From assembly GCA_000004985.1 (NCBI GenBank), contig GG738930.1: a stretch of DNA of 64,000 bases. One strand, 5' to 3'. A model generated the notes under the pieces. It saw nothing but the letters and a program-made list of their open reading frames with translations, was not told the DNA's origin and made no database searches. This stretch comes from Naegleria gruberi (lineage: Eukaryota). Positions 3,869 through 61,085 of the stretch are shown in pieces (position 1 is the first letter of the stretch; each line of letters starts with the position of its first letter). The translations under genes and the position numbers were made by a program.

Positions 3869-3918
3869 NNNNNNNNNNNNNNNNNNNNNNNNNNNNNNNN
3901 NNNNNNNNNNNNNNNNNN
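3869..3918. other. assembly gap (50 N)
   Basis: Run of N in intergenic space downstream of the RNB gene. Confidence 0.95.
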
Positions 3919-12475: not shown

Positions 12476-13160
12476 TTTTTTTGAATGAATTTTTCAAGTT
12501 TACAATGAAAATTTGTTTGTTTTTCCTTGTGTGTAAAATATTAAGGTTATCCAGTAATTGACACAGCACGTTTTCCACGAGATTACTGTAAATAACTCAT
12601 CAACACATTACAAATGTCAGTAATCAAAAGATATCAACTGAACTTACCGGTTAATTACAAAACCACAGGATTCTTTACTGAAAATCATGATAATGGTTTC
12701 CATTCCAGACTTACATGTGTATTCATACCACAACTAACAAATATCAACAAAGAATCTTCATCTCACTTTACAATTCGGCTTATAAATTATTTCCCGCCAA
12801 TTATCCAAAATCTACAACAAAACAAAATAGAAAAAAATGCACCAACTTGAAGCCTTGATGTCGCTTTAGATTACCTTAGAGACGGCCAAATACCAAAGAA
12901 AATGATTATTATATGGAAGAGTCCAAAACGCTTCTTTTTAATGATTCCAAACATGTCAAGTACCTTCTCAAGAAGAAATTTGCACTTCATGTTTTTTTGA
13001 CTTTCTCACTAATTATGAGAGTAACCCGTAAAATTTGGGTATGGACTGTGAAAGGAGCTTTGCTAAAATATTTTGTTACTTTCATCCTTTGTGTGTTGTT
13101 CAATAATCAAACAGATGTTGTTGTTTGGCAGAGAAGCAAAATATTAAAAAAACATTTTAG

Positions 13161-14882
13161 ATGACATCGAATAACTCTTCATCCTCGAATGGTGGGGATA
13201 GCACTTCTACTACTTCAGAAACCACAACGACAGAGAGAATGAATTCTCCACAACAAATGTCATTAACTGTCAACAATAATCAGCCGCAAGCCAGTGTTTC
13301 AACACAGTGTGAAATCGAATTGGCAGATATAAAGGATAACCAGATTTCTCCTAACTCTGCTGAAGAACATATTAAATCCTCTGAAACTAGAACACCAAGT
13401 GATTGTGATGACGTCTTATCCACTACTGCTGAAGTTAACTTTGATTGTCAGTCACCAATGAAAAAGCCAACATCAAAGTGTGATTTTGAAATTCCAACTT
13501 CACCACAATCGTTGAATCCAGCTGGATCCAGCACCACTAACCTAATTTCTGATGATAAGCTTGTGAAAAAGTTACCAAACAATAGCAAGTCAGTCACAAT
13601 GATAACACAAGAAGAACAAGCATTCGATACCAAAACTGTAAATAGTTACCAAAGCAAAGCAACCTCTAAGACATCAAAGACATCAGGCGGGTTTTCAGTT
13701 GCCACTTGTTGTGGTACTGTGGAGCTAAACTGTATTCGTGTCTTGTCAATTCTAGGTATGATGATCAACATTATTGCCTTTGTTGCCATGGCAGTTGTGA
13801 TTTCAGTTGCCTTCTCCGTCTCCACTACTAACGAAACTGAATTGTTGATACTCAGAGCTGATGCTAACTTGATGAGTGAAGTAGCTGCTTCTTCACTAAA
13901 GATTGCCGTGTATTCTAATCAAACCGAACCCTATATTTCCAGATGGAAAACAACTAAAGATAAGGCCGTTGCAGCTATTGCTTCGATCGTTGATGCCCTC
14001 CCACCCGATGTTTTCCTCAGACTTCTCAATGGTTCTACATACTTCAACTCTAGCGCAATTCCAGTCAATCCCTATGAACAACAAGTGGTAAACCTGTTAA
14101 AATCAGGCAAGCAGAAGGAAGCCATCACTCTCATTGAAAGTAAGAATTATACTTCCTACTCTCTTGGATGGAAGAATGTGGTTTCTAACTTGTTGACCTA
14201 TGCAAAGGAATTGGCAAGAAACAAGAATGATTACTTGTTGACCTCTTCAAGTGTCAACATGGGTCTCATTGGTTTTTCAATTCTGCTGGTTGTTCCAATT
14301 GTGTTGGCCATCTTTATTATGGCCATCAATAGAGAAGGTGTTTCTCAAAAACGTCTCAAAAAGGCAAATGCTGTCATGTTACTCGACACACTGCAGGATC
14401 ATGCACTCAAAGCACTCTTTAGAAAGCATTGTGAAACTGAAAGATGTTTGGAATCATTTGAATTTTTGGAAAAGATTCATTACTATAAGGAATTCTGTAA
14501 TGACTCATTCGATATTCAAGTCAAACTTTATGACAGTAGTCACCCAACACAAACAGAAAAGAAGTCCCTCGAATCCGATCTCAAGGAAGTTGAACAAAAG
14601 AAGTATGAGGTTGCCTTTGAAATTTTCACAGAATTTATTGATGAACATGGAGAAAAGGCACTTGTTGTCACAAGCCATTTGTGTGAAGATGTCAAGATGA
14701 AATTGGATCATTTCAATACAGGACAATCAGACCATTTGAGTGACGAACTATTCGACAAACTTCAAACTGAAGTTGCCATCCACTTGTTGGATTGCCATGC
14801 CAGATTCAAGCAAAGTATTGCATTCCAAAAGAAGATGAAAATTCAAGATATTCGTTCCAAAACCAAGATTACAGGTAAATGA
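13161..14882 (+). CDS. two-TM membrane protein with C-terminal RGS (regulator of G-protein signalling) domain
   Basis: ATG at 13161. Ser/Thr-rich N-terminus. TM1 is LSILGMMINIIAFVAMAVVISVAFSV, followed by a ~150-aa loop with N-glycosylation sequons, then TM2 GLIGFSILLVVPIVLAIFIMAI. RGS signature: ALFRKHCETERCLESFEFLEKIHYYKE ... EIFTEFIDEHGEKALV ... LFDKLQTEVAIHLLDCHARFKQS. Confidence 0.65.
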   Translation: MTSNNSSSSNGGDSTSTTSETTTTERMNSPQQMSLTVNNNQPQASVSTQCEIELADIKDNQISPNSAEEHIKSSETRTPSDCDDVLSTTAEVNFDCQSPMKKPTSKCDFEIPTSPQSLNPAGSSTTNLISDDKLVKKLPNNSKSVTMITQEEQAFDTKTVNSYQSKATSKTSKTSGGFSVATCCGTVELNCIRVLSILGMMINIIAFVAMAVVISVAFSVSTTNETELLILRADANLMSEVAASSLKIAVYSNQTEPYISRWKTTKDKAVAAIASIVDALPPDVFLRLLNGSTYFNSSAIPVNPYEQQVVNLLKSGKQKEAITLIESKNYTSYSLGWKNVVSNLLTYAKELARNKNDYLLTSSSVNMGLIGFSILLVVPIVLAIFIMAINREGVSQKRLKKANAVMLLDTLQDHALKALFRKHCETERCLESFEFLEKIHYYKEFCNDSFDIQVKLYDSSHPTQTEKKSLESDLKEVEQKKYEVAFEIFTEFIDEHGEKALVVTSHLCEDVKMKLDHFNTGQSDHLSDELFDKLQTEVAIHLLDCHARFKQSIAFQKKMKIQDIRSKTKITGK

Positions 14883-19421: not shown

Positions 19422-20303
19422 CTAATTTGTAATCAAATCGTACAAAATGAAACCTCCAGAAATTGCCAAAGAGGTAGCAATACTAATCTTCCATCCTCTG
19501 AAAAATCCAGAAATTCCTTCTTCCTTATAAGTTTTTTGGAAACAATCCAAAGTTCCAGAAAAAGTTTTTTCCTTCTTGTCAGCTTGAACTTGAAGTTTTC
19601 TTTCGACAGTTTCCAATGGATAGCAGATGAGAAAGTTGGAAAATGAAATGAGTTGGGCGATTAGGAATTTGGCCCTGATGTCGTTTGGATATGGATTGAC
19701 ACTTGTCAAAATGTCATACATGACAAAATAGGAAAATCTGTATACGATTAATTTGATTAAGGAAGCGTCAAGACCAACAAATAGAGCAGAATAACCATTG
19801 GTTTCAATAGTCTTCTTTAAAACATCGATTGGACCTGAATATTGTCTCTTGCCAATTGTGTCAAATGCCAATTTAAATCTGACATAGGCTAATGGTCTTG
19901 TAAGAGCTTCCATGGCAGTTCCTATCAAAGCTCCACCAACTACATTTCTCAAATAGTACTTTCCCAAGTCAGTGCTTGGATCAAATTTTGGGATTATATT
20001 GAAAATCTTCATTAACATTGGAGAAAACATGCCAGTCAAGATATTTTTCAATAATTCAACAGGAAATCCTCTGAACCAACTGGAAATTCCTTGATCTTGT
20101 TTAATTTGTTGCAGGATTGTAATGGTATTCAACTGTTTATCACCAATTTGCTTGGCCAATTGATGATCGGCTTGGTGAGATTGAAGAATGCATGCGGCTG
20201 TGAAAAGAGGACAAATTGGCAATTTAACAAGTAGACTGGACGAAACCTTTGCTACAATACCGACGGTCACCTGTACGAGTGGGCTGTTGTTGCTTGTTTG
20301 CAT
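19422..20303 (-). CDS. mitochondrial carrier family protein (ADP/ATP-carrier-like)
   Basis: 293 aa with ATG at 20303. Threefold ~100-aa repeat structure with six hydrophobic helices. The C-terminal motif FSGTLDCFQKTYKEEGISGFFRGW resembles the AAC signature. Confidence 0.7.
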   Translation of the reverse strand: MQTSNNSPLVQVTVGIVAKVSSSLLVKLPICPLFTAACILQSHQADHQLAKQIGDKQLNTITILQQIKQDQGISSWFRGFPVELLKNILTGMFSPMLMKIFNIIPKFDPSTDLGKYYLRNVVGGALIGTAMEALTRPLAYVRFKLAFDTIGKRQYSGPIDVLKKTIETNGYSALFVGLDASLIKLIVYRFSYFVMYDILTSVNPYPNDIRAKFLIAQLISFSNFLICYPLETVERKLQVQADKKEKTFSGTLDCFQKTYKEEGISGFFRGWKISIATSLAISGGFILYDLITN

Positions 20304-20322
20304 TTTTTTGTTTTGACCGACG

Positions 20323-21733
20323 ATGAAAAAAATACCTCAACAAGACCATCCTCCGGATACGGAAGGGAGTAATTTGCTTGCTGACAGGATTTTTGTGTTA
20401 GAGAGAGCAATTAAAACCTACCAAAAGGAAAACAATAATCTCCGTGACTATCTTCAACAACTTGTAAATATATGTAATGGTCACCCGTTATTGAATAATA
20501 ATAATAATAATCCCATCAAACCTGTAAATAATAATCTGATCAATACCCAACCATCAGAAAATGAAAATCTATTTATTACTAGAAATCCAGTAAATGTTAG
20601 AAATCTACCAACTAGTAGAAATTTAATTAATGGTGGAAATTTCTTGACTGAGACAGTTCAAATATGCGATAGTAATCCTAAAAATAGAACTGTCAGTTAT
20701 GCTGATATTACAAGATTAGCTCCTATTAAAGCTCAGCCATCTATTAAGAAAACAATAGCAAAACAAAAATCAACAACTAATAAGATGAAAAGAAATATGG
20801 CAACTAATACTAGACCTAACAAACGTAAATCTAATTACAATCTTAATCAAATAATTAATGTAATTTGCTACAAAGATGTTACTAACGAATTTGTTGAACA
20901 AATTACAGACCTACTCGGTGACTCTGTAATCATTAGAGTTAATCGATACTGTAATAATATTATTAATGTAATTTGCCCTGATGAAACCAGTTATAAAGAG
21001 TGTTTCAATCAATTAGTGCAAGGAAGTCATGGAGGAAAATTCATATTAGAATGCTTTCCATCTCCAGCAATCTTTAATCCTAAACCTTTAGCACTTTCAC
21101 ATACTACTTCCAGTAAAACTACTCACCTTAAAATGCTAGAAAATATTATTAGCAAATATATATTGGAAGATAATATTTCTGTTGAGGAACTCTACACTAA
21201 CTATTCTCATAACCAATTTATAATTAGAATATCATTTGAGGATCAAACTATTTGCTCTCAAATGGCACAAAATCTTGGTTTAAATCAATATAAAACTATT
21301 GAACAGATTAGAAATGAAACCAAGGAGACAACATCTCAATGCTCTATTCCAATTAATTATACTAATGATGAAATTAAAAAAGGAATTATCCAAGCATTTA
21401 CCAGAATTAATAAGACTCTCCAAGAAAACAATCTTACCATTACTGATACAACTAACCGCTCTGGAACAACTAAATACAAATTAATTAAAATTGTACACAA
21501 TGATATGGATGAAATGAATGAATTTTGCAAGAAATCTATCTCCCTAAAGGATAAACAAAGAAATCATAGTGGAAATGGATTTAAATTTAAGCCATCTATT
21601 CAAATATTGGATTCTAAAATCCAAAGGAAAAGTAAATTACACCCATATCTTCCTCAATTAGAGTTATCACCTATTGATAAACTCGTATTTATTGATGAAC
21701 CAATTAGACAACTACCAACTACTACTATTGTTA

Positions 21734-21738
<5 letters not shown>
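20323..21738 (+). CDS. LINE ORF1 protein (coiled-coil nucleic-acid chaperone-like)
   Basis: 471-aa ORF beginning 20 nt inside the element. The N-terminal heptad region is LLADRIFVLERAIKTYQKENNNLRDYLQQLV. Confidence 0.6.
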
Positions 21739-21770
<32 letters not shown>

Positions 21771-21772
21771 TC
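21736..21772. repeat. (AAT)n microsatellite, ~12 units
   Basis: Directly visible trinucleotide run at the ORF1/ORF2 junction of the LINE; it encodes a poly-Asn tract. Confidence 0.9.
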
Positions 21773-22020
21773 ACAAATGCAAATAATAGAATTGATAAAA
21801 TTGAAAAAAGTATTATAGATTTAACTCAACAGCTCATGCTCACTAATAACAATATTAATAATATAGTTGAAATACTTAAACAAGCAAATATTATTAGACC
21901 TAATAATGATAACAAAATGTTAAATAATCCTAATAATAAGATGTTAGAGGATTCTAATAATAGTAATAATAATATGTTAGATGATGAATTAAGTTCATCA
22001 TCTAATCCATCTACTCTACC

Positions 22021-25000
22021 TTGAGTAGAACCACAACAAGTTTAAGGCTAGCGTGCTATAACGTAAATGGTTTATATAAGCACGCAAGCCATAAATCAGT
22101 TACTCCTGAATTGAAATCCATGTGTTTAACACATGGAATTCACTTTATGAGTTTAACTGAAACTCACTTAAATACCCCAGAACTAGAAATAGAAGTCAAA
22201 AACTCTGGATCAGGGTACCTATTATTTAACTCATTAATGAATACAAGAAAAGGTTGCAAAGGTACTGCAGCTATGCACTTTCTAAATAATTATAGAAAGC
22301 GCAATATTACAAATAATAATCTCGTACCTGGAACATTACAATGGACACGATTCGAAAGTCGTGGAATTCCAATTAACATCTTCACAATTTATCTTAGTGG
22401 AAGATAATGATTATGACAATGAGGAAGAAGCTCTTAATAGCTTTATTAATGCTGCCCTCACAATTAAAGATGAACATATTATTTTAAGTGGTGATATTAA
22501 TATTGATACAAGAAATCCCACTAGTAAAAGAGAAAAAGACTGGCTATGGATACTTAATCTACTCAGACTAACCGAATTACAAACATCCAATAATACTTGG
22601 ATAAGAAGAGTTCAATCTAATATTTTTGAATCGAAACCTGATCATGTCTTTGTGTCAAAAGACATAAGAATAGTTAAAGAAGTGCTCATGCCTCCATTAA
22701 CCACTAATGATCACATTCCTTTCTATATAGATCTCGAATTTAAATCTAACTTAACCTGGAGACCTTACTTTAGTAAGAGTAAGAGAAAGAAAATATATGA
22801 AGAAATTAATAAGTCTCCTATAGATAATTTCAAAGAGTTAAATCAAGCTATCTTGACTCAAATTAACAAATATGGCTCCAAAACTGATAGATTAGGTGTT
22901 GGTCGAATCTCAACAGCCTATAAAGAAGAAATTCAAGATTTGGAAGAAGAAATTCTTCACAAATTAAATAATGAAACTATTTCTCAATCAGAAATATCTG
23001 AATTACAAACATTACTGAAAGAAACTCATATTAAAAATGGAAAACATATTAAGGAAAAATTGATAGAAGAATTCAATGATAGAACTTCATCTAAAATGTA
23101 TCAATTTGATAGAATGGTTCATTCCAAAGAAATTAAATGGAAAGATATTAATTTCGAAGAAGAGGAAATTTTAGAATACTTTACAAATAAGTTTACCTCG
23201 ACTAATCAACTTCCAACATTCATTCCAAGTAGATCAACTATTAAAGAAGGACCAAATTGGACCAACTCGATCCATATAGAAGAATTGGAAAAAGCTTTAA
23301 AACGTATGAAATCAAATACCCCTGGTCCTGATCTAATTTCTCTGGATATTATTAAGCATCTCACAGAAAAAAATCAGAAAATTTTATTGAACGAATTTAA
23401 TAATTGCCTAAGAATAGGTGATATCTCTGAAGATTGGAAGCAAGGATGGGTGAAACTCATTCCTAAAAGAGATATCACTTCTCTCAGTGACATTCGTCCA
23501 ATCACTATTTTACCTACATTTTATAGAATTTTATTTAATATTATAGCCTTTCGACTTAGATCTTGGGCATCATCTCATATAAATATGAGACAACAAGCAT
23601 TTATTACAGACAGAAACACTTTAAATCATGGTGTCCTTCTATCATCATTAGCTATGAAAACTAAGAAAAGAACCTTCATTCTTGTTAACCTAGATATTGA
23701 AGGAGCTTATGATGCTGTAGAATTGTCAGTGATTAAAATGGCACTAGACCATTGTAAATTTCCTAACGAACTCACTCAATTTATTATTAATGCCTATAGC
23801 AACCATGAATTGAGCCTAGAAATTGATAATCATCTATCCACAAAATTTACAAAAACTCGAGGAATCCCACAAGGATGCCCATTGGCTCCTCTTATATACG
23901 ATTGTATCACACAATTAATTATTGATAAAGCAATAGATAAATGGAAAATACCAATCAAACCAAACAAACTATGTGCTAATGATATTGCACTCTGTTGCTT
24001 TGCAGATGATATGAATGTTGTCTGTGACAGATATGCCAAATACAATGACAGGCTAGATAACATACATGACTGGCTAGGTCAACTACTTTTTAAACTAAAT
24101 GCAAAGAAATCAGTTGCAACTCTACTACCTAAAACAAGCAAAGTATCTCCCAAAATTAAGGGTACACCTATTCCTAAACAAAAAAACCTTAGGATACTTG
24201 GACATTATCCATGGGATGATATTCTGGTTCGACAAGATATCCAAAACAAAATTGAAAAATTTACCAAATCTTTGAAATTTCTCCCATTATTCAAAATTGA
24301 ACCAGATAACCTTAAACAAATTATTCACGCTAAAGCTATTAGCTTATTTACACACCTTTCTAAAATTAACTTAATTCCTCTGAAAAAGGCACAACAAATT
24401 GATATAGCCATTAGAGGAGCAATTAGAAGAAAACTATATATGGACAGGAAAACACCAACCAGCTTATTCCACTTACCATTAGAAAAAGGTGGATTAGGAC
24501 TACCATCTATTGTAGAATTTTCTGAAAGAATGAACCTAAGAACCATGACCTTAATTGCTAACAGTAACAATTTACTCGTCAAGAAAGCTTTCAAACATGG
24601 TATCAAGCACTGTGAGGAAACGAAAGACAATATTTATTCGAAATGGCTACTAGTACTAAAAGAATACAACCTCACACTTAAGAAAAATGAAATGAAATTC
24701 AAGTTGAAAAAAATCAAAACAGGAAATAATTTTGATATTCACACTGACGGATCAAGACTCGAATCAAAGACTGGAATGGGGATTAATATCTATGATTGCT
24801 CCAATATGAACACTCCAGTTAGATCTTTATCCCTCCATATTAATGATCAATATTCAAATAATGTAGCTGAAATATGCTCTATTATTACAGCAGCTAAAGT
24901 TATCCCAAGAGACTCCAAGATTAAAATCCATACTGATAGTAATGTGGCAATTGAAGTTCTCAAAGAACGATATAAGGGAAACTTTCTACCACTAAAAAAA

Positions 25001-25705
25001 GCCTTCTTTAAAACCATTAAGGATAGAAAACTTGAATATGAATTCAAGAAAGTTGAAGCTCATAAGGATAAGGAAAATATCAAAGTTGATTTATTGGCAA
25101 AGAATGCAACTCTGAAACCTAAAATCTTTGATATCCGTAAACTACTCTTTAATCAATATATCCTCACAAAGAACGATATTATAATCTTTGACTATAAGAG
25201 GTTAACTACCTCACAACATTTAAGGCTAATGCTTGACAAGATAGAGAGTCACCCCAATCACATACCTAACCTAGATTGGAACTCTATCAACGTCAGCTAC
25301 CTTAAATCCCATTTGTCTCCTAAATCTAAATATTATATTTGGAGAAACTCTTCAAATGCCCACATCAATTTTGGTGAGGGTAAAAGTTTCTGTCATGATT
25401 GTAACACAGAATCTGACCTTAATCACTATATTCATGAATGCCCTGCTCTGGATAGTGCCAGATACTTTTGCTTGTCAAAAATATCTGATATTCTTGATCA
25501 GAGAGAGTGTAAACTCACTCATATTCAATTCAGACCAGAAAAGCATCACCATGTACTCTTCTTCCACCATTCTGGAACCACATTCTTCGAAGATGGATAC
25601 GTACAACAATACCCAGACATTGCAGAGAAATGGCCTGAGATCCAGGGAGCCATTTCTAACTTTGTCGGCCGCTCCTATAGATATTATTATATTGACTCAA
25701 TGTAA
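22021..25705 (+). CDS. LINE ORF2 polyprotein (APE endonuclease-RT-RNaseH), interrupted by a +1 frame change near 22361-22407
   Basis: The APE domain begins in frame 1 (22021-22407) and continues in frame 2 (22361 onward, SGDINIDTRNP). The frame-1 ORF begins at TTG, not ATG. An (AAT)n-rich frame-2 ORF at 21674-22024 overlaps the ORF1/ORF2 junction. Confidence 0.65.
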
Positions 25706-25756
25706 ATTTACAAATTCAAAGAGAATCTGAATAGATTCGTTATTATTGCAATAAAA

Positions 25757-26456
25757 GATTTTTTTGTTTTGATCGTCCCTCAAAAAAATACCTCAACGTC
25801 TAGTACGTTTGTGCGGTTTTCTAGATTGACCAAGATGCAAGTAGCACAGCGCTAAACTATCGCCGTAACTTTCGGCATCGAGGTTTAGATGGATTCAAAC
25901 TATGTATTGTTTATTCTTGTCTGTAGAATAACATATAGCTATCTTCTGTCAAAGATTTAAAGCAGGTTTCTTTAGTTTAGCACGGGCAAAACAATGTAAA
26001 GATACCGAGGCGTGGAGAGTAATGATTTAATTATGAACAGAAAGGAAATTTTATAAGAATATAATCAAAGAGAATAGATATTGTAGAACGTTACGTAAGA
26101 ATTTTATTGCAGCGTAAGAGATGGTATTGGATCACCTTCTCGATATCCTTGACAGATATTTCAGATGCTTCCCCATTTAATTTTCTATTATTTCGCGATG
26201 TTTACTTTCCCTATGGTTTCCATTAGTCACGGTCTAACTCTTGATTAGTTTCCAACTATGCAACTTAAAGGCTAGGCGATAACTCCACTCCTAAAAGTCC
26301 CCGTCCAATGACGAAGCTGTGAATGAACTTTGTTCCTACGATACACACTCCAAAAGTACACCATCACAAGAGTGTTTGGTCGAGAATCTGAATAGATTCG
26401 AAAAATTGTAGTGTATAATAATCGGTATTATAAATTTTTTTGTTTTGATTGGTTTT
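25757..26456 (+). mobile_element. ~0.7-kb derivative of the same LINE: shared 5' head and 3' tail flanking an unrelated, GC-richer non-coding interior (non-autonomous or internally replaced copy)
   Basis: 5' ATTTTTTTGTTTTGATCG...AAAAAAATACCTCAAC matches 20304-20340. 3' GAGAATCTGAATAGATTCG ... ATTTTTTTGTTTTGA at 26380-26456 matches 25718-25773. The interior 25800-26378 has no long ORF. Confidence 0.55.
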
Positions 26457-26457
26457 T

Positions 26458-26567
26458 ACAAACAGCCCATGCATTAAATTTGTGATATTGTGAAATGATT
26501 TTGATTGAGTGGTTTCGATGAACTTTTTGCTTCTTCCAAATGAGGGTTGTTTAATGCATGGCTGTTT
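26458..26567. repeat. ~20-bp inverted repeat (ACAAACAGCCCATGCATTAAA / TTTAATGCATGGCTGTTTGT) with ~65-nt spacer
   Basis: Seen directly; only a one-base difference between the arms. It sits immediately 3' of the LINE-derived tail and ~160 nt upstream of tRNA-Leu. Confidence 0.6.
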
Positions 26568-26726
26568 GTAAGCAAATAAAACGATGCAACAAAGTTTCCA
26601 ATTTAGCATTTGACCTCTAGAAAATATTTAGAATTCTAGTAGTAAAAATTAATGCATAAAATAATTGATGACATAGGTATCTGCCTACTTCGTTAATGTT
26701 TTACATTTTTTTTCCAATATCGTGAA

Positions 26727-26807
26727 GCAGGGGTTCCCGAGTGGTCAAAGGGGGTAGACTCAAGTTCTACTGCGCAAGCTTCGTGGGTTCAAATCCCACC
26801 TTCTGCA
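26727..26807 (+). tRNA. tRNA-Leu (anticodon CAA)
   Basis: Cloverleaf read by hand. Acceptor stem GCAGGGG/CTTCTGC with two G-U pairs. Anticodon stem GTAGA/TCTAC with loop CTCAAGT. Long variable arm typical of Leu. T arm GTGGG-TTCAAAT-CCCAC. Confidence 0.8.
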
Positions 26808-29933: not shown

Positions 29934-29983
29934 NNNNNNNNNNNNNNNNNNNNNNNNNNNNNNNNNNNNNNNNNNNNNNNNNN
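29934..29983. other. assembly gap (50 N placeholder)
   Basis: It separates the truncated hydrolase gene from the truncated cyclase paralogue; both are incomplete at this junction. Confidence 0.95.
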
Positions 29984-37599: not shown

Positions 37600-40539
37600 A
37601 TGCCCACCAATACAATAGCCACTTCTGCTACTCCCTCAACAAACAACTCGACTGCTGCATACTCAGCAACAACAACAAATTCCAACTCCAATTTTTTACT
37701 TCGACCCTCTTCGAGAGAACCACGAGTTATACGAAAAGCTCCAACTCCTCAGCCTTATCAATCGAAAAAGTCTGCTATCGGTCCAACTAGTGNNNNNNNN
37801 NNNNNNNNNNNNNNNNNNNNNNNNNNNNNNNNNNNNNNNNNNNNNNNNNNNNNNNNNNNNNNNNNNNNNNNNNNNNNNNNNNNNNNNNNNNNNNNNNNNN
37901 NNNNNNNNNNNNNNNNNNNNNNNNNNNNNNNNNNNNNNNNNNNNNNNNNNNNNNNNNNNNNNNNNNNNNNNNNNNNNNNNNNNNNNNNNNNNNNNNNNNN
38001 NNNNNNNNNNNNNNNNNNNNNNNNNNNNNNNNNNNNNNNNNNNNAACGAGAAGCAAAACCTCCTGGAAATTCTGAGGTTCCTCCTCTCAAGAAGAAATCT
38101 TCATCAATAACAACCACTCTAACTTCATCACCTAAGGCTGCCTCTGGAGGAGAGAAAAAAAAGGCTTCTAATCTATCTCCCTCGCCAGTAAGAAAGAGAG
38201 GTTACGAATTGGCCACCAAGTCAAGCTCGAGTTCTTCCCTATTGAAGAATGAAGAAGGAAGTGCTGCCAAGCCATCTCAATTGAGAAAATCAGGATCGTT
38301 TACAGGGCAGAATGTCATTTCTAATAATACAAAGAAGGAAGCAAATAATGGAAAAAAGTTGGCAAGACCAAAGGGATCTGCTTTTCAAAAGAAGCGTCCT
38401 CTTGATGATAAATCTGTTTCATACAAGCTGTTGGAAGAAATTGTCAATTCAACCATTACTCAGTTTATTAAGCAAGATGGAATTTTAAGTCATAGAGACT
38501 TACGCTTAATTATTAATAAGAAGATTGCCCTCGTCAAGTCAATCCATGACAATATTATTGGATCTGAAGCTGTATTTAGAACACCATTTGGGTCGAAAAA
38601 GTATTTACCAATCACGTATTGTGATTACATTGCAACGGGGAAACCATTGAAAATGATTGAGGATTACATTTTGGAACAAGTTTTACCAACCTATGCCAAC
38701 ACTCATAATACAACATCTTTCACAGGTTATCAAACAACACACTTGATAGAAGATGCAAGACAAATAATTGCTCAATGTGTGAATGCCAATTTGAAAAAAC
38801 CAGAAGTTGCAAGTTCAACCTGTACAGTGAGTGGGGAGTGTGCTTCACAGGAATCCAACAACACTCAGAAGGAAGACGATGAAGATGTTATTATCTTTGC
38901 TGGAAGTGGTAGTGCAGCATGTATCAATACACTCATTCACTACATTGGAATCAGACAGAAAGTGAGAGAGGCACCAAGTGAAAAGGAGCTCCCTGTTGTC
39001 ATTATCTCAACACTGGAACACCACAGTAATATTCTTGCTTGGAGAGAAACTGGAGCTTGTGTGATTCAAATTATGGAAGATAAGTACGGTAATGTCGACC
39101 TGGATGAACTACTAATTCACCTCAAACAATTCAAAGACAGTGGAAGAATGCTAATTGTCTCAATGACTGCAGCTTCAAATGTAACTGGTGTTGTGACTGA
39201 TACTGAAGCTATTGCCAAGTTGGCTCACGAAAATAATGCTTGGTGCTTTTTTGACTATGCTGGAGGTGCTCCATATTTGGATATTAATGTCAATCCAAAG
39301 AATGATCCTCTTCTTGCTAAGGATGCAGTCTTTATATCCCCACACAAATTTATTGGTGGTCCAAGCACTCCTGGTGTTTTGATTGCCAAGAAGAAACTCT
39401 TTTCAAATACAGTGCCAAGTCAACCTGGTGGTGGTACAGTGACCTACAATCACAGTTATACTCCAGTTGTTGAAGAAAAGGAGGAAGGAGGCACATCAAA
39501 TATTATTGGAAGCATTCGGTGTGCTCTGGTATTCAAGTTGAAGGATGAAGTTGGACCAAAATTGATTCAGAGAATTGAGGAAAAGTATAGAGATAGAGCT
39601 TTAAAGACGTGGTCAACAAATCCCAATCTTGTAATGGTTGGTCCTGGATTGGACTGTATTGGGGAGGGAAAGGTTGAAAAACTTGCCTTCTTCTCCTTTT
39701 TGGTCAAACATGAAGACTACTTTTTGCATCCATCCTATGTGAGTTTGTTGTTGAATGATCTGTTTGGACTGCAGAGCCGTCCCGGATGTTCTTGTGCTGG
39801 TCCTTACGGGGCTGAAATATTGGGCATTCAAATGACCAAGTTAAATCTTATTGAAGCTGCCATTGTTGAATCTATCAAGTCGTCCAATAGCTTGACTTGT
39901 TTGAAGCCAGGTTGGAGTAGACTCAATTTGAACTACTTTTTCGATGATAATACTGTTCAATTTGTTTTACAGGCTGTGGACTTTGTTGCAACTCATGGCT
40001 GGAAATTATTGCCTTACTATGTTTTTGATTCAAAAACCAATGAATGGAGTCATAGAAGATTTGGAAATAATTCACCTATGCGTTTGTCAGGATATTTTGA
40101 TAACTTTACCAAATACACAGAGGAAAATAGAAAGAAACTGACAGAGGTTTCATTTTCAAATGGCTTCTTGGAGTTTGTAGATAAGAATGGAGAACTTCAC
40201 AACACCGAGCCAACCACACCATTATCATACAGTAATATTTTGAAAGAAGCAGAGTCTGTATTGAGAGAATCAACAAATAACTTTAATGCACTCTACATTA
40301 ACATTGAATCTGAACTTAATAATATTTTTGGTGATGAGGAGCTCGGATTAAGACATAGATATGGTAATTTGCGATGGTTCATGCTTCCTTCTGAAGCTTT
40401 AATGGACATGAAAGGTATTGAACGTGAGAAACATACAGATCCTGTGATTGTTCCAAAAGTTTACCCATCCTCAGATAGTTATATCAAGCAAAAAAAGATT
40501 GAATCAAGAACATTCCTCAAATCAAGGTTAAATAAATAA
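37600..40539 (+). CDS. class-V aminotransferase-fold PLP-dependent enzyme (cysteine desulfurase/selenocysteine-lyase-like) with Ser/Thr-rich N-terminal extension; spans a 252-N gap
   Basis: ATG at 37600. Motifs VIIFAGSGSAACI, VVIISTLEHHSNILAW and ISPHKFIGGPSTPGVL (PLP-lysine context). The gap 37793-38044 lies inside the low-complexity N-terminal part. Confidence 0.65.
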   Translation: MPTNTIATSATPSTNNSTAAYSATTTNSNSNFLLRPSSREPRVIRKAPTPQPYQSKKSAIGPTSXXXXXXXXXXXXXXXXXXXXXXXXXXXXXXXXXXXXXXXXXXXXXXXXXXXXXXXXXXXXXXXXXXXXXXXXXXXXXXXXXXXXXREAKPPGNSEVPPLKKKSSSITTTLTSSPKAASGGEKKKASNLSPSPVRKRGYELATKSSSSSSLLKNEEGSAAKPSQLRKSGSFTGQNVISNNTKKEANNGKKLARPKGSAFQKKRPLDDKSVSYKLLEEIVNSTITQFIKQDGILSHRDLRLIINKKIALVKSIHDNIIGSEAVFRTPFGSKKYLPITYCDYIATGKPLKMIEDYILEQVLPTYANTHNTTSFTGYQTTHLIEDARQIIAQCVNANLKKPEVASSTCTVSGECASQESNNTQKEDDEDVIIFAGSGSAACINTLIHYIGIRQKVREAPSEKELPVVIISTLEHHSNILAWRETGACVIQIMEDKYGNVDLDELLIHLKQFKDSGRMLIVSMTAASNVTGVVTDTEAIAKLAHENNAWCFFDYAGGAPYLDINVNPKNDPLLAKDAVFISPHKFIGGPSTPGVLIAKKKLFSNTVPSQPGGGTVTYNHSYTPVVEEKEEGGTSNIIGSIRCALVFKLKDEVGPKLIQRIEEKYRDRALKTWSTNPNLVMVGPGLDCIGEGKVEKLAFFSFLVKHEDYFLHPSYVSLLLNDLFGLQSRPGCSCAGPYGAEILGIQMTKLNLIEAAIVESIKSSNSLTCLKPGWSRLNLNYFFDDNTVQFVLQAVDFVATHGWKLLPYYVFDSKTNEWSHRRFGNNSPMRLSGYFDNFTKYTEENRKKLTEVSFSNGFLEFVDKNGELHNTEPTTPLSYSNILKEAESVLRESTNNFNALYINIESELNNIFGDEELGLRHRYGNLRWFMLPSEALMDMKGIEREKHTDPVIVPKVYPSSDSYIKQKKIESRTFLKSRLNK

Positions 40540-42389: not shown

Positions 42390-44872
42390 TTATTCCAAAA
42401 TGTTGAGAGTTGGTGTTTGAGCTTGTTGTTCACATAATCGAAGTAAATGTTGGGTTGGAAGGTCATTTGGGTTGACTTGTTGATATTCTCGAAATAGAGG
42501 AATGGCTTCTTCAAATTTACCTTCAAACAGAAGAGAGCAACCTTGGTTGTAAACTCCCCATTTTAAATATCTTTCCTTCTTATTGAAATGTGAATGTAAA
42601 TCTTTGGTCGAGTTAAGTAAATGAGTAGAGATTGGAAACTTACCATCATCAGTTTCTTGTTTCATTTCAATTGAATCTCCCAATTCATATAATAAACAAT
42701 CTTTTGTCAATGAATTTGACATAGAAACACTTCCAATTTCCCAATTTTCTTGGTTGAAATCATCTAGAGAGGAAAAGAAATAATCCTCCCTTAATTCTCT
42801 TCTATCCAGGAATCTAGTCTCACACCTAGTGTGGCAATATTGCTTGATGTGCTGTGTGATAATGATTGGAACTTTGAGTTTCTTGCCAAATCTTATTATT
42901 TGATCCAAATTATGTCTCGTGCTTGAAAAAATTGTAAAGTGCTTAATGTCTTTAGTTCCAATATTTCCACAAAATGTTTTTTGAGCACAAATAGCAAATC
43001 TGAAATTAATCAATTCACAAATTTCCTCCCTCAATAGTCCACTTTCTCTCCACTTGTTTTCTTTCACGTTGGTTAACTTTTCTTGTAAAAGTTGAGCGCT
43101 GGCAACTGCTTTTTCTTCGTGATTGTTCTGGTTAATAGTAGTATTATAAGCAATAGTTAAAATATCATTCTCAAAGTTGACCAAATGGCCAGATGTAGTC
43201 CTAATCACTGTGTCCACTTGGCTAAATAAATCTCCCAACAATGAAACTAGATGAGTTGGGTTTCCTTCTAAGGATAACAACCATTCATTCAATCCTTCAA
43301 TGTACATTTGATTGATACTAATCTTTCTTGGTTCCAAATAGAGAGAAAATTTGCATTTCAATTTAGATGATTTTTTCTTACTGTCCAAAATATTAGATAA
43401 TTTTGAAGCTTTCCCTCCTTCAAGTGAATTATCTTCAATGCTTGAAAATGGTTGACTTTTTTCCAATTCAACAGAATCTGAAGTCATTGTTCTAGGTGAA
43501 AAGGAATCCAACGAAAGTCTAGTTGCAGTTTCTTGTTCTCCATTTNNNNNNNNNNNNNNNNNNNNNNNNNNNNNNNNNNNNNNNNNNNNNNNNNNNNNNN
43601 NNNNNNNNNNNNNNNNNNNNNNNNNNNNNNNNNNNNNNNNNNNNNNNNNNNNNNNNNNNNNNNNNNNNNNNNNNNNNNNNNNNNNNNNNNNNNNNNNNNN
43701 NNNNNNNNNNNNNNNNNNNNNNNNNNNNNNNNNNNNNNNNNNNNNNNNNNNNNNNNNNNNNNNNNNNNNNNNNNNNNNNNNNNNNNNNNNNNNNNNNNNN
43801 NNNNNNNNNNNNNNNNNNNNNNNNNNNNNNNNNNNNNNNNNNNNNNNNNNNNNNNNNNNNNNNNNNNNNNNNNNNNNNNNNNNNNNNNNNNNNNNNNNNN
43901 NNNNNNNNNNNNNNNNNNNNNNNNNNNNNNNNNNNNNNNNNNNNNNNNNNNNNNNNNNNNNNNNNNNNNNNNNNNNNNNNNNNNNNNNNNNNNNNNNNNN
44001 NNNNNNNNNNNNNNNNNNNNNNNNNNNNNNNNNNNNNNNNNNNNNNNNNNNNNNNNNNNNNNNNNNNNNNNNNNNNNNNNNNNNNNNNNNNNNNNNNNNN
44101 NNNNNNNNNNNNNNNNNNNNNNNNNNNNNNNNNNNNNNNNNNNNNNNNNNNNNNNNNNNNNNNNNNNNNNNNNNNNNNNNNNNNNNNNNNNNNNNNNNNN
44201 NNNNNNNNNNNNNNNNNNNNNNNNNNNNNNNNNNNNNNNNNNNNNNNNNNNNNNNNNNNNNNNNNNNNNNNNNNNNNNNNNNNNNNNNNNNNNNNNNNNN
44301 NNNNNNNNNNNNNNNNNNNNNNNNNNNNNNNNNNNNNNNNNNNNNNNNNNNNNNNNNNNNNNNNNNNNNNNNNNNNNNNNNNNNNNNNNNNNNNNNNNNN
44401 NNNNNNNNNNNNNNNNNNNNNNNNNNNNNNNNNNNNNNNNNNNNNNNNNNNNNNNNNNNNNNNNNNNNNNNNNNNNNNNNNNNNNNNNNNNNNNNNNNNN
44501 NNNNNNNNNNNNNNNNNNNNNNNNNNNNNNNNNNNNNNNNNNNNNNNNNNNNNNNNNNNNNNNNNNNNNNNNNNNNNNNNNNNNNNNNNNNNNNNNNNNN
44601 NNNNNNNNNNNNNNNNNNNNNNNNATAACAAACACACTCATTAATGTCAAACTCGAAATTACTATAAGCATACAATTTCTTATAGAAATTTGGCAATTGC
44701 TCGCCGATAAGAAGAAGACGGAAGAGTTTGTATCCGAATTATTGTATTTTCTATTCCAATCATTGTCTTCATAACTAAATCTCCCATTAGAATAAATATC
44801 ATGTTGAGGTAAATCAAAGGCAAGAGGTAAAACCTTACGAGAGGACGTTGATGATCGCCTTGTGAGTGGCAT
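42390..44872 (-). CDS. cyclase-homology-domain protein with degenerate catalytic residues plus C-terminal TPR-like region; interrupted by a 1079-N gap
   Basis: The C-terminal part (42390-43545) aligns to a class III cyclase domain (HLVSLLGDLFSQVDTVIRTTSGHLVNFENDILTIAY; FRFAICAQKTFCGNIG; FTIFSSTRHNLDQI) but lacks the first metal-binding Asp and the N/R transition-state residues. A TPR-like helix pair follows. The N-terminal fragment is at 44625-44872. Confidence 0.5.
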
Positions 44873-48687: not shown

Positions 48688-49877
48688 NNNNNNNNNNNNN
48701 NNNNNNNNNNNNNNNNNNNNNNNNNNNNNNNNNNNNNNNNNNNNNNNNNNNNNNNNNNNNNNNNNNNNNNNNNNNNNNNNNNNNNNNNNNNNNNNNNNNN
48801 NNNNNNNNNNNNNNNNNNNNNNNNNNNNNNNNNNNNNNNNNNNNNNNNNNNNNNNNNNNNNNNNNNNNNNNNNNNNNNNNNNNNNNNNNNNNNNNNNNNN
48901 NNNNNNNNNNNNNNNNNNNNNNNNNNNNNNNNNNNNNNNNNNNNNNNNNNNNNNNNNNNNNNNNNNNNNNNNNNNNNNNNNNNNNNNNNNNNNNNNNNNN
49001 NNNNNNNNNNNNNNNNNNNNNNNNNNNNNNNNNNNNNNNNNNNNNNNNNNNNNNNNNNNNNNNNNNNNNNNNNNNNNNNNNNNNNNNNNNNNNNNNNNNN
49101 NNNNNNNNNNNNNNNNNNNNNNNNNNNNNNNNNNNNNNNNNNNNNNNNNNNNNNNNNNNNNNNNNNNNNNNNNNNNNNNNNNNNNNNNNNNNNNNNNNNN
49201 NNNNNNNNNNNNNNNNNNNNNNNNNNNNNNNNNNNNNNNNNNNNNNNNNNNNNNNNNNNNNNNNNNNNNNNNNNNNNNNNNNNNNNNNNNNNNNNNNNNN
49301 NNNNNNNNNNNNNNNNNNNNNNNNNNNNNNNNNNNNNNNNNNNNNNNNNNNNNNNNNNNNNNNNNNNNNNNNNNNNNNNNNNNNNNNNNNNNNNNNNNNN
49401 NNNNNNNNNNNNNNNNNNNNNNNNNNNNNNNNNNNNNNNNNNNNNNNNNNNNNNNNNNNNNNNNNNNNNNNNNNNNNNNNNNNNNNNNNNNNNNNNNNNN
49501 NNNNNNNNNNNNNNNNNNNNNNNNNNNNNNNNNNNNNNNNNNNNNNNNNNNNNNNNNNNNNNNNNNNNNNNNNNNNNNNNNNNNNNNNNNNNNNNNNNNN
49601 NNNNNNNNNNNNNNNNNNNNNNNNNNNNNNNNNNNNNNNNNNNNNNNNNNNNNNNNNNNNNNNNNNNNNNNNNNNNNNNNNNNNNNNNNNNNNNNNNNNN
49701 NNNNNNNNNNNNNNNNNNNNNNNNNNNNNNNNNNNNNNNNNNNNNNNNNNNNNNNNNNNNNNNNNNNNNNNNNNNNNNNNNNNNNNNNNNNNNNNNNNNN
49801 NNNNNNNNNNNNNNNNNNNNNNNNNNNNNNNNNNNNNNNNNNNNNNNNNNNNNNNNNNNNNNNNNNNNNNNNNNNNN
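48688..49877. other. assembly gap (1190 N)
   Basis: It hides the 5' end of the cyclase gene at 45117-48687 and the 3' two-thirds of its upstream paralogue. Confidence 0.95.
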
Positions 49878-52782: not shown

Positions 52783-54024
52783 CGAGGGGTTTTTTTCTTA
52801 GCTTTTTTCAACTACAAGTATCTTATATTTTGGCGGGAGTATAATGTCGCTTTTAGAGACGGCATCGCACATTTGAGACCTTAATCAATGAATTGTGCTC
52901 TCCAATTTAAAAATTTCCCTTTGCATCTTAATAAGCTGAGAATGATCGGTTTTGTCCTTCTGCCGAGATTCTAAACCCGCTTATGTTCAGATTTCAATTG
53001 AAGGGAGAAGATATGATATTCCAATGGTAATGTGGGCGTATTATTGTGTGTTCATTATTCATTGTATTTTACAATTATTACTGCTCTAAAGAGAGAGATT
53101 ATCATTCCGTAACAATTGTTTTGTGCTTGCGAGATCGTATTAAATATTAATTATTTTTGTTACTGTAATTTATACGTCTTGTTTTGGATTAATCTCTACA
53201 GGTTCTTTGCTGAGAACATTTGTGTTGTTCTTTTAATTATTATTATTAATATATTTCCTAATCGTCTGATGAAGAAGAATACATGTTGTTGTTTTTGTTT
53301 TGAATANNNNNNNNNNNNNNNNNNNNNNNNNNNNNNNNNNNNNNNNNNNNNNNNNNNNNNNNNNNNNNNNNNNNNNNNNNNNNNNNNNNNNNNNNNNNNN
53401 NNNNNNNNNNNNNNNNNNNNNNNNNNNNNNNNNNNNNNNNNNNNNNNNNNNNNNNNNNNNNNNNNNNNNNNNNNNNNNNNNNNNNNNNNNNNNNNNNNNN
53501 NNNNNNNNNNNNNNNNNNNNNNNNNNNNNNNNNNNNNNNNNNNNNNNNNNNNNNNNNNNNNNNNNNNNNNNNNNNNNNNNNNNNNNNNNNNNNNNNNNNN
53601 NNNNNNNNNNNNNNNNNNNNNNNNNNNNNNNNNNNNNNNNNNNNNNNNNNNNNNNNNNNNNNNNNNNNNNNNNNNNNNNNNNNNNNNNNNNNNNNNNNNN
53701 NNNNNNNNNNNNNNNNNNNNNNNNNNNNNNNNNNNNNNNNNNNNNNNNNNNNNNNNNNNNNNNNNNNNNNNNNNNNNNNNNNNNNNNNNNNNNNNNNNNN
53801 NNNNNNNNNNNNNNNNNNNNNNNNNNNNNNNNNNNNNNNNNNNNNNNNNNNNNNNNNNNNNNNNNNNNNNNNNNNNNNNNNNNNNNNNNNNNNNNNNNNN
53901 NNNNNNNNNNNNNNNNNNNNATAGATGCGAAGGATTGTTTGGATTCTCCAAATTGATGAAAATGTTTTGGAATTTTTCATAACTTAGTGCAAGGAATTGT
54001 TTCAATTACATAGACAAAAAAAAG

Positions 54025-60390: not shown

Positions 60391-60921
60391 CTATCCATTT
60401 GGAACATAACAAACAGAATATCCAATCTTATTCCACTTTCCATCCACACTCCAATTACAATTAGAATATTCACAACTGAAAATATCACCTCTCAATGAAA
60501 CTCTAATTTTTTCTGAACCAGATCCAATTTTTCCATCATTGGATTGACCTGAACTTCCACACACAATCAAACCATCTCCAATAAATGCATTTCCATTCAT
60601 TGTAAAAGTTACAGCCAAATTGGTAAATGTGTACAAATATGGTTCTGCAAAATTTGTGGCGCCAATTATAATTCCTTTTGTGGATTTGAAAGAATTTGGT
60701 TGGATAAACATGGACAGGGCTGATTCTTTGAGAGGGAAAGTACGGAGGCCAATGGATTGGAATGATTGGTCATTGTTGGACGAATATCCAGTGTAAAACA
60801 TTGGATGGTCAACCGTGGTGTTGACTTGCAAGACGAAACGTTGTGCTGTTGTGAATGAGACGAAACTGCACAAGAAAATCAAGATTGAAAGTGAGAGGAT
60901 ACTTTTGTGTTGTTGTTGCAT
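60391..60921 (-). CDS. hypothetical secreted protein (signal peptide, Cys-containing, Gly/Ser-rich)
   Basis: 176-aa ORF with ATG at 60921. N-terminal signal ILSLSILIFLCSFVSFTTA. No domain recognised. Confidence 0.45.
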   Translation of the reverse strand: MQQQHKSILSLSILIFLCSFVSFTTAQRFVLQVNTTVDHPMFYTGYSSNNDQSFQSIGLRTFPLKESALSMFIQPNSFKSTKGIIIGATNFAEPYLYTFTNLAVTFTMNGNAFIGDGLIVCGSSGQSNDGKIGSGSEKIRVSLRGDIFSCEYSNCNWSVDGKWNKIGYSVCYVPNG

Positions 60922-61085
60922 TTTTTTTTTGCAAGACGAAAGGTGTGAGGCAAACTGTCCAAATAAATCCTATTCGAAAATATCCGAAACACCTTGAATC
61001 ATTGGCGAGTTTAGAATTATTGTAAATTGTTATTTGTTTATTATAATACATTAAATCATGGCTACTGCAAAATATTTCCAGTTTC

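What the first reader, a model, noticed from the sequence alone, without database searches (positions are those of the whole stretch)
25757..26807. Internally replaced LINE derivative abutting the full-length copy, with a shared 14-nt junction motif, ~270 bp upstream of tRNA-Leu
The sequence from 25757 repeats the 5' head of the LINE (ATTTTTTTGTTTTGAyCG...AAAAAAATACCTCAAC) and ends with the same 3' tail (GAGAATCTGAATAGATTCG, N20-38, ATTTTTTTGTTTTGA), but the 580-nt interior is unrelated and non-coding. This is what a non-autonomous element mobilised in trans by the LINE machinery would look like, or a template-switch product. TTTTTTTGTTTTGA occurs at 20304, 25760 and 26443, at every element boundary. 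It is either a sequence-specific target and target-site duplication or part of the termini. The pair sits just upstream of a tRNA gene, reminiscent of tRNA-targeted retroelements (established for Dictyostelium TRE elements and yeast Ty3, and only an analogy here).
Basis: partly seen in the sequence, partly recalled or inferred. Interest (0 to 1): 0.55.

Follow-up and report, generated by a model that had tools for sequence, protein, structure and literature searches.

The report
LINE plus short partner retroposon, Naegleria
In the amoeba Naegleria gruberi, a 5.4-kb LINE retrotransposon and a 661-bp non-coding element that keeps only the LINE's first 25 bases and a 19-base 3' hairpin sit head-to-tail in one insertion site; this is the known look of an autonomous/non-autonomous retroposon pair, and the nearby tRNA gene looks incidental.

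Summary
ATTTTTTTGTTTTGA occurs exactly three times, at 20302, 25758 and 26434. It brackets a 5,441-bp LINE and a 661-bp non-coding element. The two share only a 25-nt 5' head (16 nt exact) and a 19-nt 3' hairpin. The window is Naegleria gruberi NEG-M.

The 15-mer is a target-site duplication, not an element terminus. Related LINE copies in N. fowleri and N. lovaniensis carry different 12-17-nt duplications, and all begin with a T-run. The target here is the A-tract leader directly in front of the start codon of a divergent mitochondrial-carrier gene. Two N. fowleri copies have the same geometry.

The hairpin lies in the longest exact match (22 nt) between this LINE and a LINE only 51% identical in ORF2 protein. 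It is therefore probably the reverse transcriptase's recognition signal, and its retention in the short element argues for trans-mobilisation.

Tandem autonomous/non-autonomous elements separated only by a duplication are a published hallmark of ingi/RIME and L1Tc/NARTc pairs in trypanosomes.

tRNA targeting is not supported: none of four relatives with 10-kb flanks has a tRNA gene nearby.

The copy number of the short element could not be tested, so mobility is inferred. Verdict: a new member of a known kind, of moderate interest.

The parts
19422..20303 (-). Host gene for a mitochondrial ADP/ATP-carrier-like protein, 293 aa. Its start codon (CAT at 20301-20303 on the + strand) overlaps the first base pair of the left duplication. 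Only 15 nt of its native leader remain next to it.
   Evidence: The ORF is listed. Pfam Mito_carr matches at E = 1.8e-34. The protein is exactly XP_002669219.1 of N. gruberi NEG-M.
20302..20316 (+). Target-site duplication, copy 1: ATTTTTTTGTTTTGA.
   Evidence: Searches show three exact copies. The bases on either side differ between the copies.
20317..25757 (+). LINE (non-LTR retrotransposon), 5,441 bp, with both termini but defective. The 5' head is 20317-20341. ORF1 is 20323-21738. ORF2 (endonuclease, reverse transcriptase, RNase H, C-terminal Cys/His motif) runs 22021-25705 with one frameshift near 22405. The 3' UTR is 25706-25757.
   Evidence: ORFs are. Pfam RVT_1 matches at 4e-28 and RNase_H at 4e-11. 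Homologues are in N. gruberi, N. fowleri and N. lovaniensis. The frameshift is located by tblastn with P0001.
25721..25739 (+). 3' hairpin of the LINE, GAGAATCTGAATAGATTCG: a 6-bp stem GAAUCU/AGAUUC with a GAAU loop.
   Evidence: The fold is. With one or two flanking bases it is the longest exact match (22 nt) between this LINE and L001, which is 51% identical in ORF2 protein.
25758..25772 (+). Target-site duplication, copy 2. It is the only sequence between the two elements.
25773..26433 (+). Short non-coding element, 661 bp. The head is 25773-25797 (TCGTCCCTCAAAAAAATACCTCAAC, with CTC where the LINE has its ORF1 ATG). The unrelated interior is 25798-26381. The hairpin is 26382-26400. The AT-rich 3' end is 26401-26433.
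   Evidence: define the parts. There is no ORF, no Rfam hit better than E = 0.27, no tRNA-like part and no Pol III A or B box.
26434..26448 (+). Target-site duplication, copy 3, followed by the original intergenic flank.
26727..26807 (+). tRNA-Leu(CAA), a neighbouring gene that is probably a bystander.
   Evidence: ARAGORN and Rfam at 48.7 bits. No tRNA gene lies near the related LINE copies.

Best explanation
Two retroposons were inserted separately by target-primed reverse transcription into one and the same target. That target is the T-tract ATTTTTTTGTTTTGA, which on the other strand is the A-rich leader immediately 5' of the ATG of a mitochondrial-carrier gene in N. gruberi.

Inferred steps: the element-encoded endonuclease nicks the bottom strand at the end of the A-run (...AAAAAAAT/G) and nicks the top strand about 15 nt away. 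Each insertion regenerates the full 15-nt target on both sides. A second insertion at the same two nicks therefore gives the order duplication, LINE, duplication, short element, duplication.

The 661-bp element is non-autonomous. It keeps only what is needed in cis. One part is the LINE's 5'-terminal ~25 nt, an A-tract leader that resembles host-gene start contexts and may carry the start-site or 5'-end signal. The other is the 19-nt 3' hairpin, which the LINE reverse transcriptase probably recognises to begin cDNA synthesis. This is the 'stringent' type of LINE, whose reverse transcriptase recognises a specific 3' sequence of its own RNA; there is no poly(A) tail and no complementarity between the primer and the RNA 3' end.

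Shown: the anatomy, the duplications, the conservation of the hairpin, and the T-tract targets in relatives. Inferred: the nick positions, the role of the hairpin, trans-mobilisation, and the existence of a family of such short elements.
For: (1) There are three exact 15-nt repeats with different neighbouring bases.

(2) Related LINE copies have different flanking duplications that all begin with a T-run:
- 17 nt, ATTTTTTTTTGATATTA, in N. fowleri L002.
- 13 nt, ATTTTTTTCATGC, in L003.
- 15 nt, TTTTTTTGTTCTATT, around a 5'-truncated copy in N. lovaniensis L004.
- 12 nt with one mismatch in L014.
- T-runs at the 3' junctions of L011 and L001.
The repeat therefore comes from the target, and the stagger is fairly constant.

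(3) The left duplication overlaps an annotated start codon in the window, in L002 and in L003.

(4) The 22-nt stretch containing the hairpin is the longest exact match between the window LINE and L001. It is longer than the matches at the reverse-transcriptase catalytic motifs, although the aligned ORF2 DNA is about 66% identical and the protein 51%.

(5) In the short element only the 19-nt hairpin is shared. The sequence on both sides of it differs from the LINE. This fits selection on the hairpin better than recent DNA-level descent from the neighbouring copy.

(6) The full-length relatives share a very short 5' leader ending in an A-run.

(7) There is published precedent. [quoted passage not shown] R2 SIDEs (short internally deleted elements) keep only 5' and 3' cis elements (PMC3414825).
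Against: No second copy of the short element was seen. None occurs in the 64-kb window or in about 125 kb of related loci. The N. gruberi genome is not in any DNA-searchable collection offered.

A six-frame protein query found nothing. This is weak negative evidence, because the element is non-coding.

N. gruberi is poor in transposons: repeats are 5.1% of the genome in PMC6125883 and transposable elements 0.28% in the bioRxiv survey. Any family must be small.

The hairpin is thermodynamically unremarkable (-5 kcal/mol, z = -0.5) and is absent from the N. fowleri and N. lovaniensis subfamilies.

The adjacent LINE copy is itself defective, so it cannot be the current source of protein.
Confidence: 0.6

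Rival explanations
1. A one-off chimera rather than a member of a mobile family. In one version, the reverse transcriptase switched templates during a single insertion, from LINE 3' sequence to an unrelated cellular RNA and then to a LINE 5' end. In the other, a tandemly duplicated LINE suffered a DNA-level deletion with capture of about 580 bp of filler DNA.
For: The interior matches nothing else available, so a unique origin cannot be excluded. Template jumps by LINE reverse transcriptases onto other RNAs are documented for R2 (PMC3414825 abstract). TE content in N. gruberi is low.
Against: A template switch within one event would not put a complete copy of the local 15-nt duplication between the two elements.

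A DNA-level replacement should have left LINE sequence on at least one side of the hairpin. In fact only the 19 nt are shared; the 18-nt and 33-nt 3' ends differ, and so does the sequence upstream.

The first 9 nt of the two heads also differ, at 5 of 9 positions, while the next 16 are identical.
Confidence: 0.25
2. The short element is an internal-deletion derivative, of the RIME or SIDE type, of a different N. gruberi LINE family. On this view the interior is that family's fused 5' and 3' UTRs, and its partner is not the neighbouring LINE. This overlaps with the best explanation on mechanism and differs only on origin and partner.
For: N. gruberi encodes at least two other diverged LINE proteins (P0002 at 75% and P0004 at 55% identity to this ORF2). 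The same hairpin is used by a LINE only 51% identical (L001), so several families could share it. The short element's tail after the hairpin resembles the L001 tail by eye about as much as it resembles the neighbour's; the aligner did not pair the two.
Against: The 16-nt exact stretch of the head, ending TACCTCAAC, is specific to the neighbouring LINE and is not found in L001, L002 or L014. No UTR sequences of the other N. gruberi families could be fetched.
Confidence: 0.2
3. The pair was placed there by tRNA-gene-directed integration, as with Dictyostelium TRE elements or yeast Ty3.
For: The pair lies 278 nt upstream of tRNA-Leu(CAA), and a second tRNA gene lies 2 kb away.
Against: No tRNA gene lies within 10 kb of four related insertions (L002, L003, L004, L014) or on three further contigs.

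The insertion point is defined by a T-tract and a start codon, not by distance to the tRNA. A T8 run 13 nt upstream of the tRNA (26706) was not used.

From my own knowledge, TRE5 and Ty3 integrate within about 50 bp and about 20 bp of tRNA genes, much closer than 278 nt.
Confidence: 0.03
4. The 15-nt motif is part of the element, a terminal direct repeat, rather than duplicated target.
For: The motif is identical at all three boundaries, and a T-run follows the 3' end of every relative examined.
Against: The flanking repeats differ in sequence and length between copies. A 5'-truncated copy (L004) still has the whole repeat on its 5' side. The left copy also serves as the leader and start codon of an annotated host gene.
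Confidence: 0.02

Closest known systems
Trypanosomatid autonomous/non-autonomous retroposon pairs: ingi/RIME (T. brucei), L1Tc/NARTc (T. cruzi), Tvingi/TvSIDER1 (T. vivax)
   Same: A short non-coding element shares the 5' terminus of an endonuclease/RT/RNase H LINE. The duplication has a fixed length and insertion is relatively site-specific. The two elements sit in tandem, separated only by a duplication (PMC3820030; PMC1874656 abstract). The host belongs to the same eukaryotic supergroup, Discoba (my own knowledge).
   Different: The shared 5' part is 25 nt, not the 77-79-nt Pr77/HDV-like-ribozyme hallmark, and Rfam finds no ribozyme. The duplication is 15 nt (12-17 in relatives), not 12. 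There is no poly(A) tail. A shared 3' hairpin is present. Membership of the ingi clade was not tested by phylogeny.
Stringent-type LINE/SINE partnerships through a shared 3' stem-loop (eel UnaL2/UnaSINE1; R1/R2 SIDEs in Drosophila)
   Same: The only 3' sequence shared by the LINE and the short element is a small conserved stem-loop near the 3' end. There is no dependence on poly(A). R2 SIDEs likewise keep only the 5' and 3' cis elements (PMC3414825). The UnaL2 case is from my own knowledge.
   Different: No tRNA-derived Pol III head is present. The interior is neither a deletion remnant of the partner nor recognisable as any known RNA. Binding of the reverse transcriptase to the hairpin is untested.
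tRNA-targeted retroelements (Dictyostelium TRE5/TRE3, yeast Ty3)
   Same: Only the proximity of this one locus to a tRNA gene.
   Different: No consistent association with tRNA genes was seen in relatives. The distance of 278 nt does not fit. The target is a T-tract.

Membership tests
Non-LTR retrotransposon (LINE) with AP-type endonuclease | A reverse transcriptase domain of the non-LTR type | tested here: met
   Pfam RVT_1 matches at E = 4.1e-28. The nearest solved structures are R2 and L1 ORF2p.
Non-LTR retrotransposon (LINE) with AP-type endonuclease | An N-terminal AP-like endonuclease | tested here: met
   Window 22048-22404 aligns at 63% identity to residues 1-118 of P0001. P0001 and P0003 carry PF14529/PF03372. 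The window's own fragment scored no Pfam hit.
Non-LTR retrotransposon (LINE) with AP-type endonuclease | Flanking target-site duplications, no terminal repeats, and 5'-truncated copies | tested here: met
   Duplications are seen. 5'-truncated copies are L003 and L004.
Autonomous/non-autonomous retroposon pair (ingi/RIME and L1Tc/NARTc type) | A short element without coding capacity that shares terminal sequence with the autonomous element | tested here: met
   The 25-nt head (16 exact) and the 19-nt hairpin are shared. All six reading frames are closed.
Autonomous/non-autonomous retroposon pair (ingi/RIME and L1Tc/NARTc type) | The same duplication length and target as the autonomous partner, and a tandem arrangement separated only by a duplication | tested here: met
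   Three identical 15-nt repeats. The criterion is taken from PMC3820030.
Autonomous/non-autonomous retroposon pair (ingi/RIME and L1Tc/NARTc type) | Several dispersed copies of the short element, each with its own duplication | not testable with these tools
Exact look-ups failed. Scans of metagenome and viral collections gave only chance hits or none.
ingi/L1Tc clade specifically | The 77-79-nt 5' hallmark (Pr77 promoter and HDV-like ribozyme) and a 12-bp duplication | tested here: not met
   Rfam finds no ribozyme at the 5' end. Only 25 nt are shared. The duplication is 15 nt. No RT phylogeny was done.
Classical SINE | A head derived from tRNA, 7SL or 5S RNA with internal Pol III A and B boxes | tested here: not met
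   ARAGORN and Rfam find nothing in 25773-26433. No A or B box matches within one mismatch, and four T4 runs lie inside the element.
tRNA-gene-targeted retroelement (TRE, Ty3) | Copies lie at a fixed short distance from tRNA genes | tested here: not met
   The distance here is 278 nt. None of the four related insertions with 10-kb flanks has a tRNA gene. Copies of the same family in N. gruberi itself could not be examined.
Stringent-type LINE (3'-end recognition) | A conserved 3' UTR structure needed for reverse transcription, and no poly(A) tail | tested here: inconclusive
   The hairpin is the most conserved stretch between the two LINE families and there is no poly(A) tail. Whether it is required is untested. 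The N. fowleri and N. lovaniensis subfamilies lack this hairpin, although L002 has other 3' hairpins.

The most novel reading that the evidence does not exclude
This Naegleria LINE clade may be a start-codon-proximal integrator. Its endonuclease would nick at the end of the A-tract that forms the leader of many Naegleria genes. Insertions would then land, in divergent orientation, exactly at the ATG while the duplication preserves the leader. The whole cis requirement for mobilising any RNA would be about 25 nt at the 5' end plus a 19-nt hairpin. If true, this would be a new target niche for a LINE and a very small, portable mobilisation signal.
Probability: 0.25. Interest if true: 0.55.

Novelty: new member of a known kind. 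Interest (0 to 1): 0.36.

Why it matters
Transposons of Naegleria and other Heterolobosea are barely described. My literature searches found genome-level percentages only, and no LINE or SINE family description.

This locus gives a worked example with exact ends, target and duplication of a Naegleria LINE. It provides a candidate minimal 3' recognition hairpin that is conserved across families. It also provides a candidate non-autonomous partner, in the same tandem, duplication-separated architecture known from trypanosomatid retroposons.

In practice it warns annotators about three host genes: the mitochondrial-carrier gene here, and the TELO2 gene and a gene for a 1,923-aa protein in N. fowleri. 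Each has a LINE immediately upstream of its ATG. That raises a testable question about how small Naegleria promoters are.

Tried and rejected
- Exact-protein look-ups to reach N. gruberi contigs failed. These used a window gene and the two N. gruberi LINE proteins P0002 and P0004.
- A scan of the metagenome collection for the 19-nt hairpin returned six unrelated chance matches, L005-L010, with GC of 38-57% and no LINE context. The viral collection gave none.
- A concatenated six-frame translation of the short element, searched against 5.8 billion proteins, gave no hit.
- Rfam found only tRNAs. It was run at gathering threshold on the window and at E <= 10 on the short element and on the LINE 5' end.
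- blastn of the short element against the window and all loci found only the head and hairpin.
- tblastn of all LINE proteins against the short element gave nothing below E = 0.2.
- No other LINE fragments occur in the window.
- Whole-element RNA folding is not unusual, z = +0.98.
- A host-gene leader at 60921-60940 (TTCGTCTTGC-A10-TG) resembles the L001 5' end. I dismissed this as chance: the gene encodes an ordinary signal-peptide protein, and the same 13-mer recurs inside its coding region.
- I ran no further search on an orthologous 'empty site'. The host protein's 90% cluster has a single member, so no close strain is available.

Full report
**Source and observation**

The window is from Naegleria gruberi NEG-M. 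The 293-aa ORF at 19422-20303 (minus strand) is exactly XP_002669219.1. The best hits to the LINE ORF2 are Naegleria proteins.

ATTTTTTTGTTTTGA is exact at 20302-20316, 25758-25772 and 26434-26448. With one mismatch allowed the 14-mer has four hits in the window, and 0 of 100 shuffles reach four. The 5' heads match over 25 nt inside the elements, and the last 16 nt are exact. GAGAATCTGAATAGATTCG is exact at 25721 and 26382 and occurs nowhere else in the window, even at three mismatches. The third motif is at 26435, not 26443. The interior is 584 nt. The tRNA starts 278 nt after the third repeat.

**The LINE**

The element at 20317-25757 carries ORF1 (20323-21738) and an ORF2 with reverse transcriptase and RNase H (Pfam). 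An AP-type endonuclease is inferred from alignment to P0001 and from that protein's Pfam hits. By eye there is also a C-terminal Cys/His motif.

The copy has both ends but is not intact:
- tblastn with P0001 switches frame at about 22405.
- ORF2 has no ATG where L001 has one.
- By eye, ORF1 seems to lose its frame in an (AAT)n run at 21736. This point is tentative.

**What the 15-mer is**

I fetched related LINE insertions through their proteins.
- N. fowleri L002 is a full-length copy flanked by the 17-nt repeat ATTTTTTTTTGATATTA.
- N. fowleri L003 is 5'-truncated and flanked by ATTTTTTTCATGC.
- N. lovaniensis L004 is 5'-truncated and flanked by TTTTTTTGTTCTATT.
- N. fowleri L014 is full-length and flanked by TTTTT[C/A]GTGAAC.
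- A metagenome copy, L011, and a Logan contig, L001, also end directly in front of a T-run.

The flanking repeats therefore differ from copy to copy. They are 12-17 nt long, always begin with a T-run, and are present even around 5'-truncated copies. They are target-site duplications of a T-tract target, not element termini.

The window's 15-mer is the same thing. It is present three times because two elements occupy one target.

**Where the target lies**

In the window the left duplication overlaps the AT of the annotated ATG of the divergent carrier gene. The same holds for the annotated start codons of the TELO2-like gene in L002 and of a gene for a 1,923-aa protein in L003. L004 and L014 are intergenic.

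Within the window, 11 of 41 A>=7 runs are followed by TG, and 7 of those 11 open long ORFs. A-tracts are thus a common start-codon leader in this genome. A T-tract/A-tract preference alone explains much of the association with start codons. Three of five is a small sample: a rough binomial calculation of my own against 18% gives p about 0.04.

No tRNA gene lies in the 10-kb flanks of L002, L003, L004 or L014, or on L011-L013. The tRNA-Leu here is best read as a bystander.

**The short element**

The element at 25773-26433 has these properties:
- It is closed in all six reading frames.
- It has no Rfam match better than E = 0.27 and no tRNA-like part.
- It has no Pol III boxes and contains four internal T4 runs.
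- Its predicted fold is unremarkable.
- It shows no DNA or protein-level similarity to any LINE in hand, apart from the head and hairpin.
- Its head has CTC where the LINE has its ORF1 ATG.

**The hairpin**

The 19-mer folds into a 6-bp stem with a GAAU loop. L001 is a complete LINE from an unidentified organism, only 51% identical in ORF2 protein and about 66% in aligned ORF2 DNA. It carries the same sequence directly after its stop codon.

The 22-nt stretch AAGAGAATCTGAATAGATTCGT is the longest exact match between the two LINEs. It is longer than the matches at the reverse-transcriptase catalytic motifs. That is strong evidence for a cis function.

In the short element only the 19 nt are kept, and the sequences on both sides differ from the LINE. 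This is what selection for mobilisation would give. It is not what a recent DNA-level deletion or replacement of the adjacent copy would give.

None of these elements ends in poly(A). The bottom-strand primer (...AAAAAAAT-3') is not complementary to the RNA 3' ends. By analogy with stringent-type LINEs, this suggests structure-based recognition of the 3' end. That step is inferred.

**Mechanism proposed**

There were two independent target-primed insertions at the same pair of nicks. Each insertion regenerates the complete target on both sides, so the site stays a target.

This is the published explanation for the tandem autonomous/non-autonomous pairs 'only separated by a TSD' in trypanosomes (PMC3820030). 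R2 SIDEs show that a 5' element plus a 3' element can suffice for a non-autonomous LINE derivative (PMC3414825).

A template switch within one event cannot place a full local duplication between the elements.

**Limits**

The key test is whether the 661-bp unit is repeated elsewhere with its own duplications. It could not be run, because the N. gruberi assembly is not in any DNA-searchable collection. Indirect routes gave nothing.

TE content in Naegleria is low, so any family is small. The unit could also be a derivative of another N. gruberi LINE family (P0002 or P0004). It could be a one-off chimera.

**Comparison and verdict**

The pair works like ingi/RIME or L1Tc/NARTc, and like stringent LINE/SINE partners. 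It is not a member of the ingi hallmark group: no 77-nt Pr77/ribozyme was found and the duplication is 15 nt rather than 12. It is not a classical Pol III SINE, and it is not tRNA-targeted.

It is a new member of a known kind, in a lineage where such elements have not been described in the literature I could search. Interest is moderate.

Noticed in passing
L002:7371-7387 and 12980-12996; L003:9549-9561 and 13341-13353: Two N. fowleri LINE insertions sit exactly at the annotated start codons of divergent host genes: a TELO2-like gene and a gene for a 1,923-aa protein. Only 12-17 nt of the native leader are retained, and one of the two LINEs is 5'-truncated. How these genes are still transcribed is unexplained. 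Naegleria core promoters may be tiny, or the gene models or the genes themselves may be defective.
   Followed up: partly
window 26455-26575: A near-perfect inverted repeat of about 24 bp (uuuacaaacagcccaugcauuaaa / uuuaaugcauggcuguuuguaag) lies with arms about 75 nt apart in the flank between the third duplication and tRNA-Leu. It folds at -38.7 kcal/mol with z = -3.9, and 0 of 200 shuffles fold as well. Its nature is unknown; it could be a MITE-like remnant or a regulatory palindrome.
   Followed up: partly
window 3869-3918, 29934-29983, 37793-38044, 43546-44624, 48688-49877, 53307-53920: These are assembly gaps (runs of N). They explain the apparent very low-GC bins and the ORFs open in all frames at 43-54 kb.
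   Followed up: yes
window 20323-21738 (LINE ORF1), residues 255-336: ORF1 scores above the Pfam gathering threshold for UPF0223, a family of uncharacterised proteins (E = 4.7e-7, 30.5 bits). This may be a chance or compositional match. It was not examined further.
   Followed up: no
window 21736-22024 and about 22405: The LINE copy is defective. ORF2 has a frameshift near 22405 and no ATG. By eye, an extra A in GTTAAATAATAAT puts the C-terminal part of ORF1 in another frame.
   Followed up: partly
window-wide, e.g. 12475, 28279, 36609, 60921 (minus-strand genes): Long A-runs (A7-A10) directly abutting ATG are a frequent start-codon context in this N. gruberi window. Seven of the 11 A>=7 runs followed by TG open ORFs of at least 100 codons, whereas 17% of all ATGs open 60 or more codons.
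   Followed up: partly
L001 (Logan SRR26782605 contig, 5,279 nt): This is a complete and apparently intact LINE (ORF1 523 aa, ORF2 1,213 aa). The contig begins and ends at what appear to be the element's boundaries, as expected for a multi-copy repeat collapsed by the assembler. The source organism was not identified.
   Followed up: no
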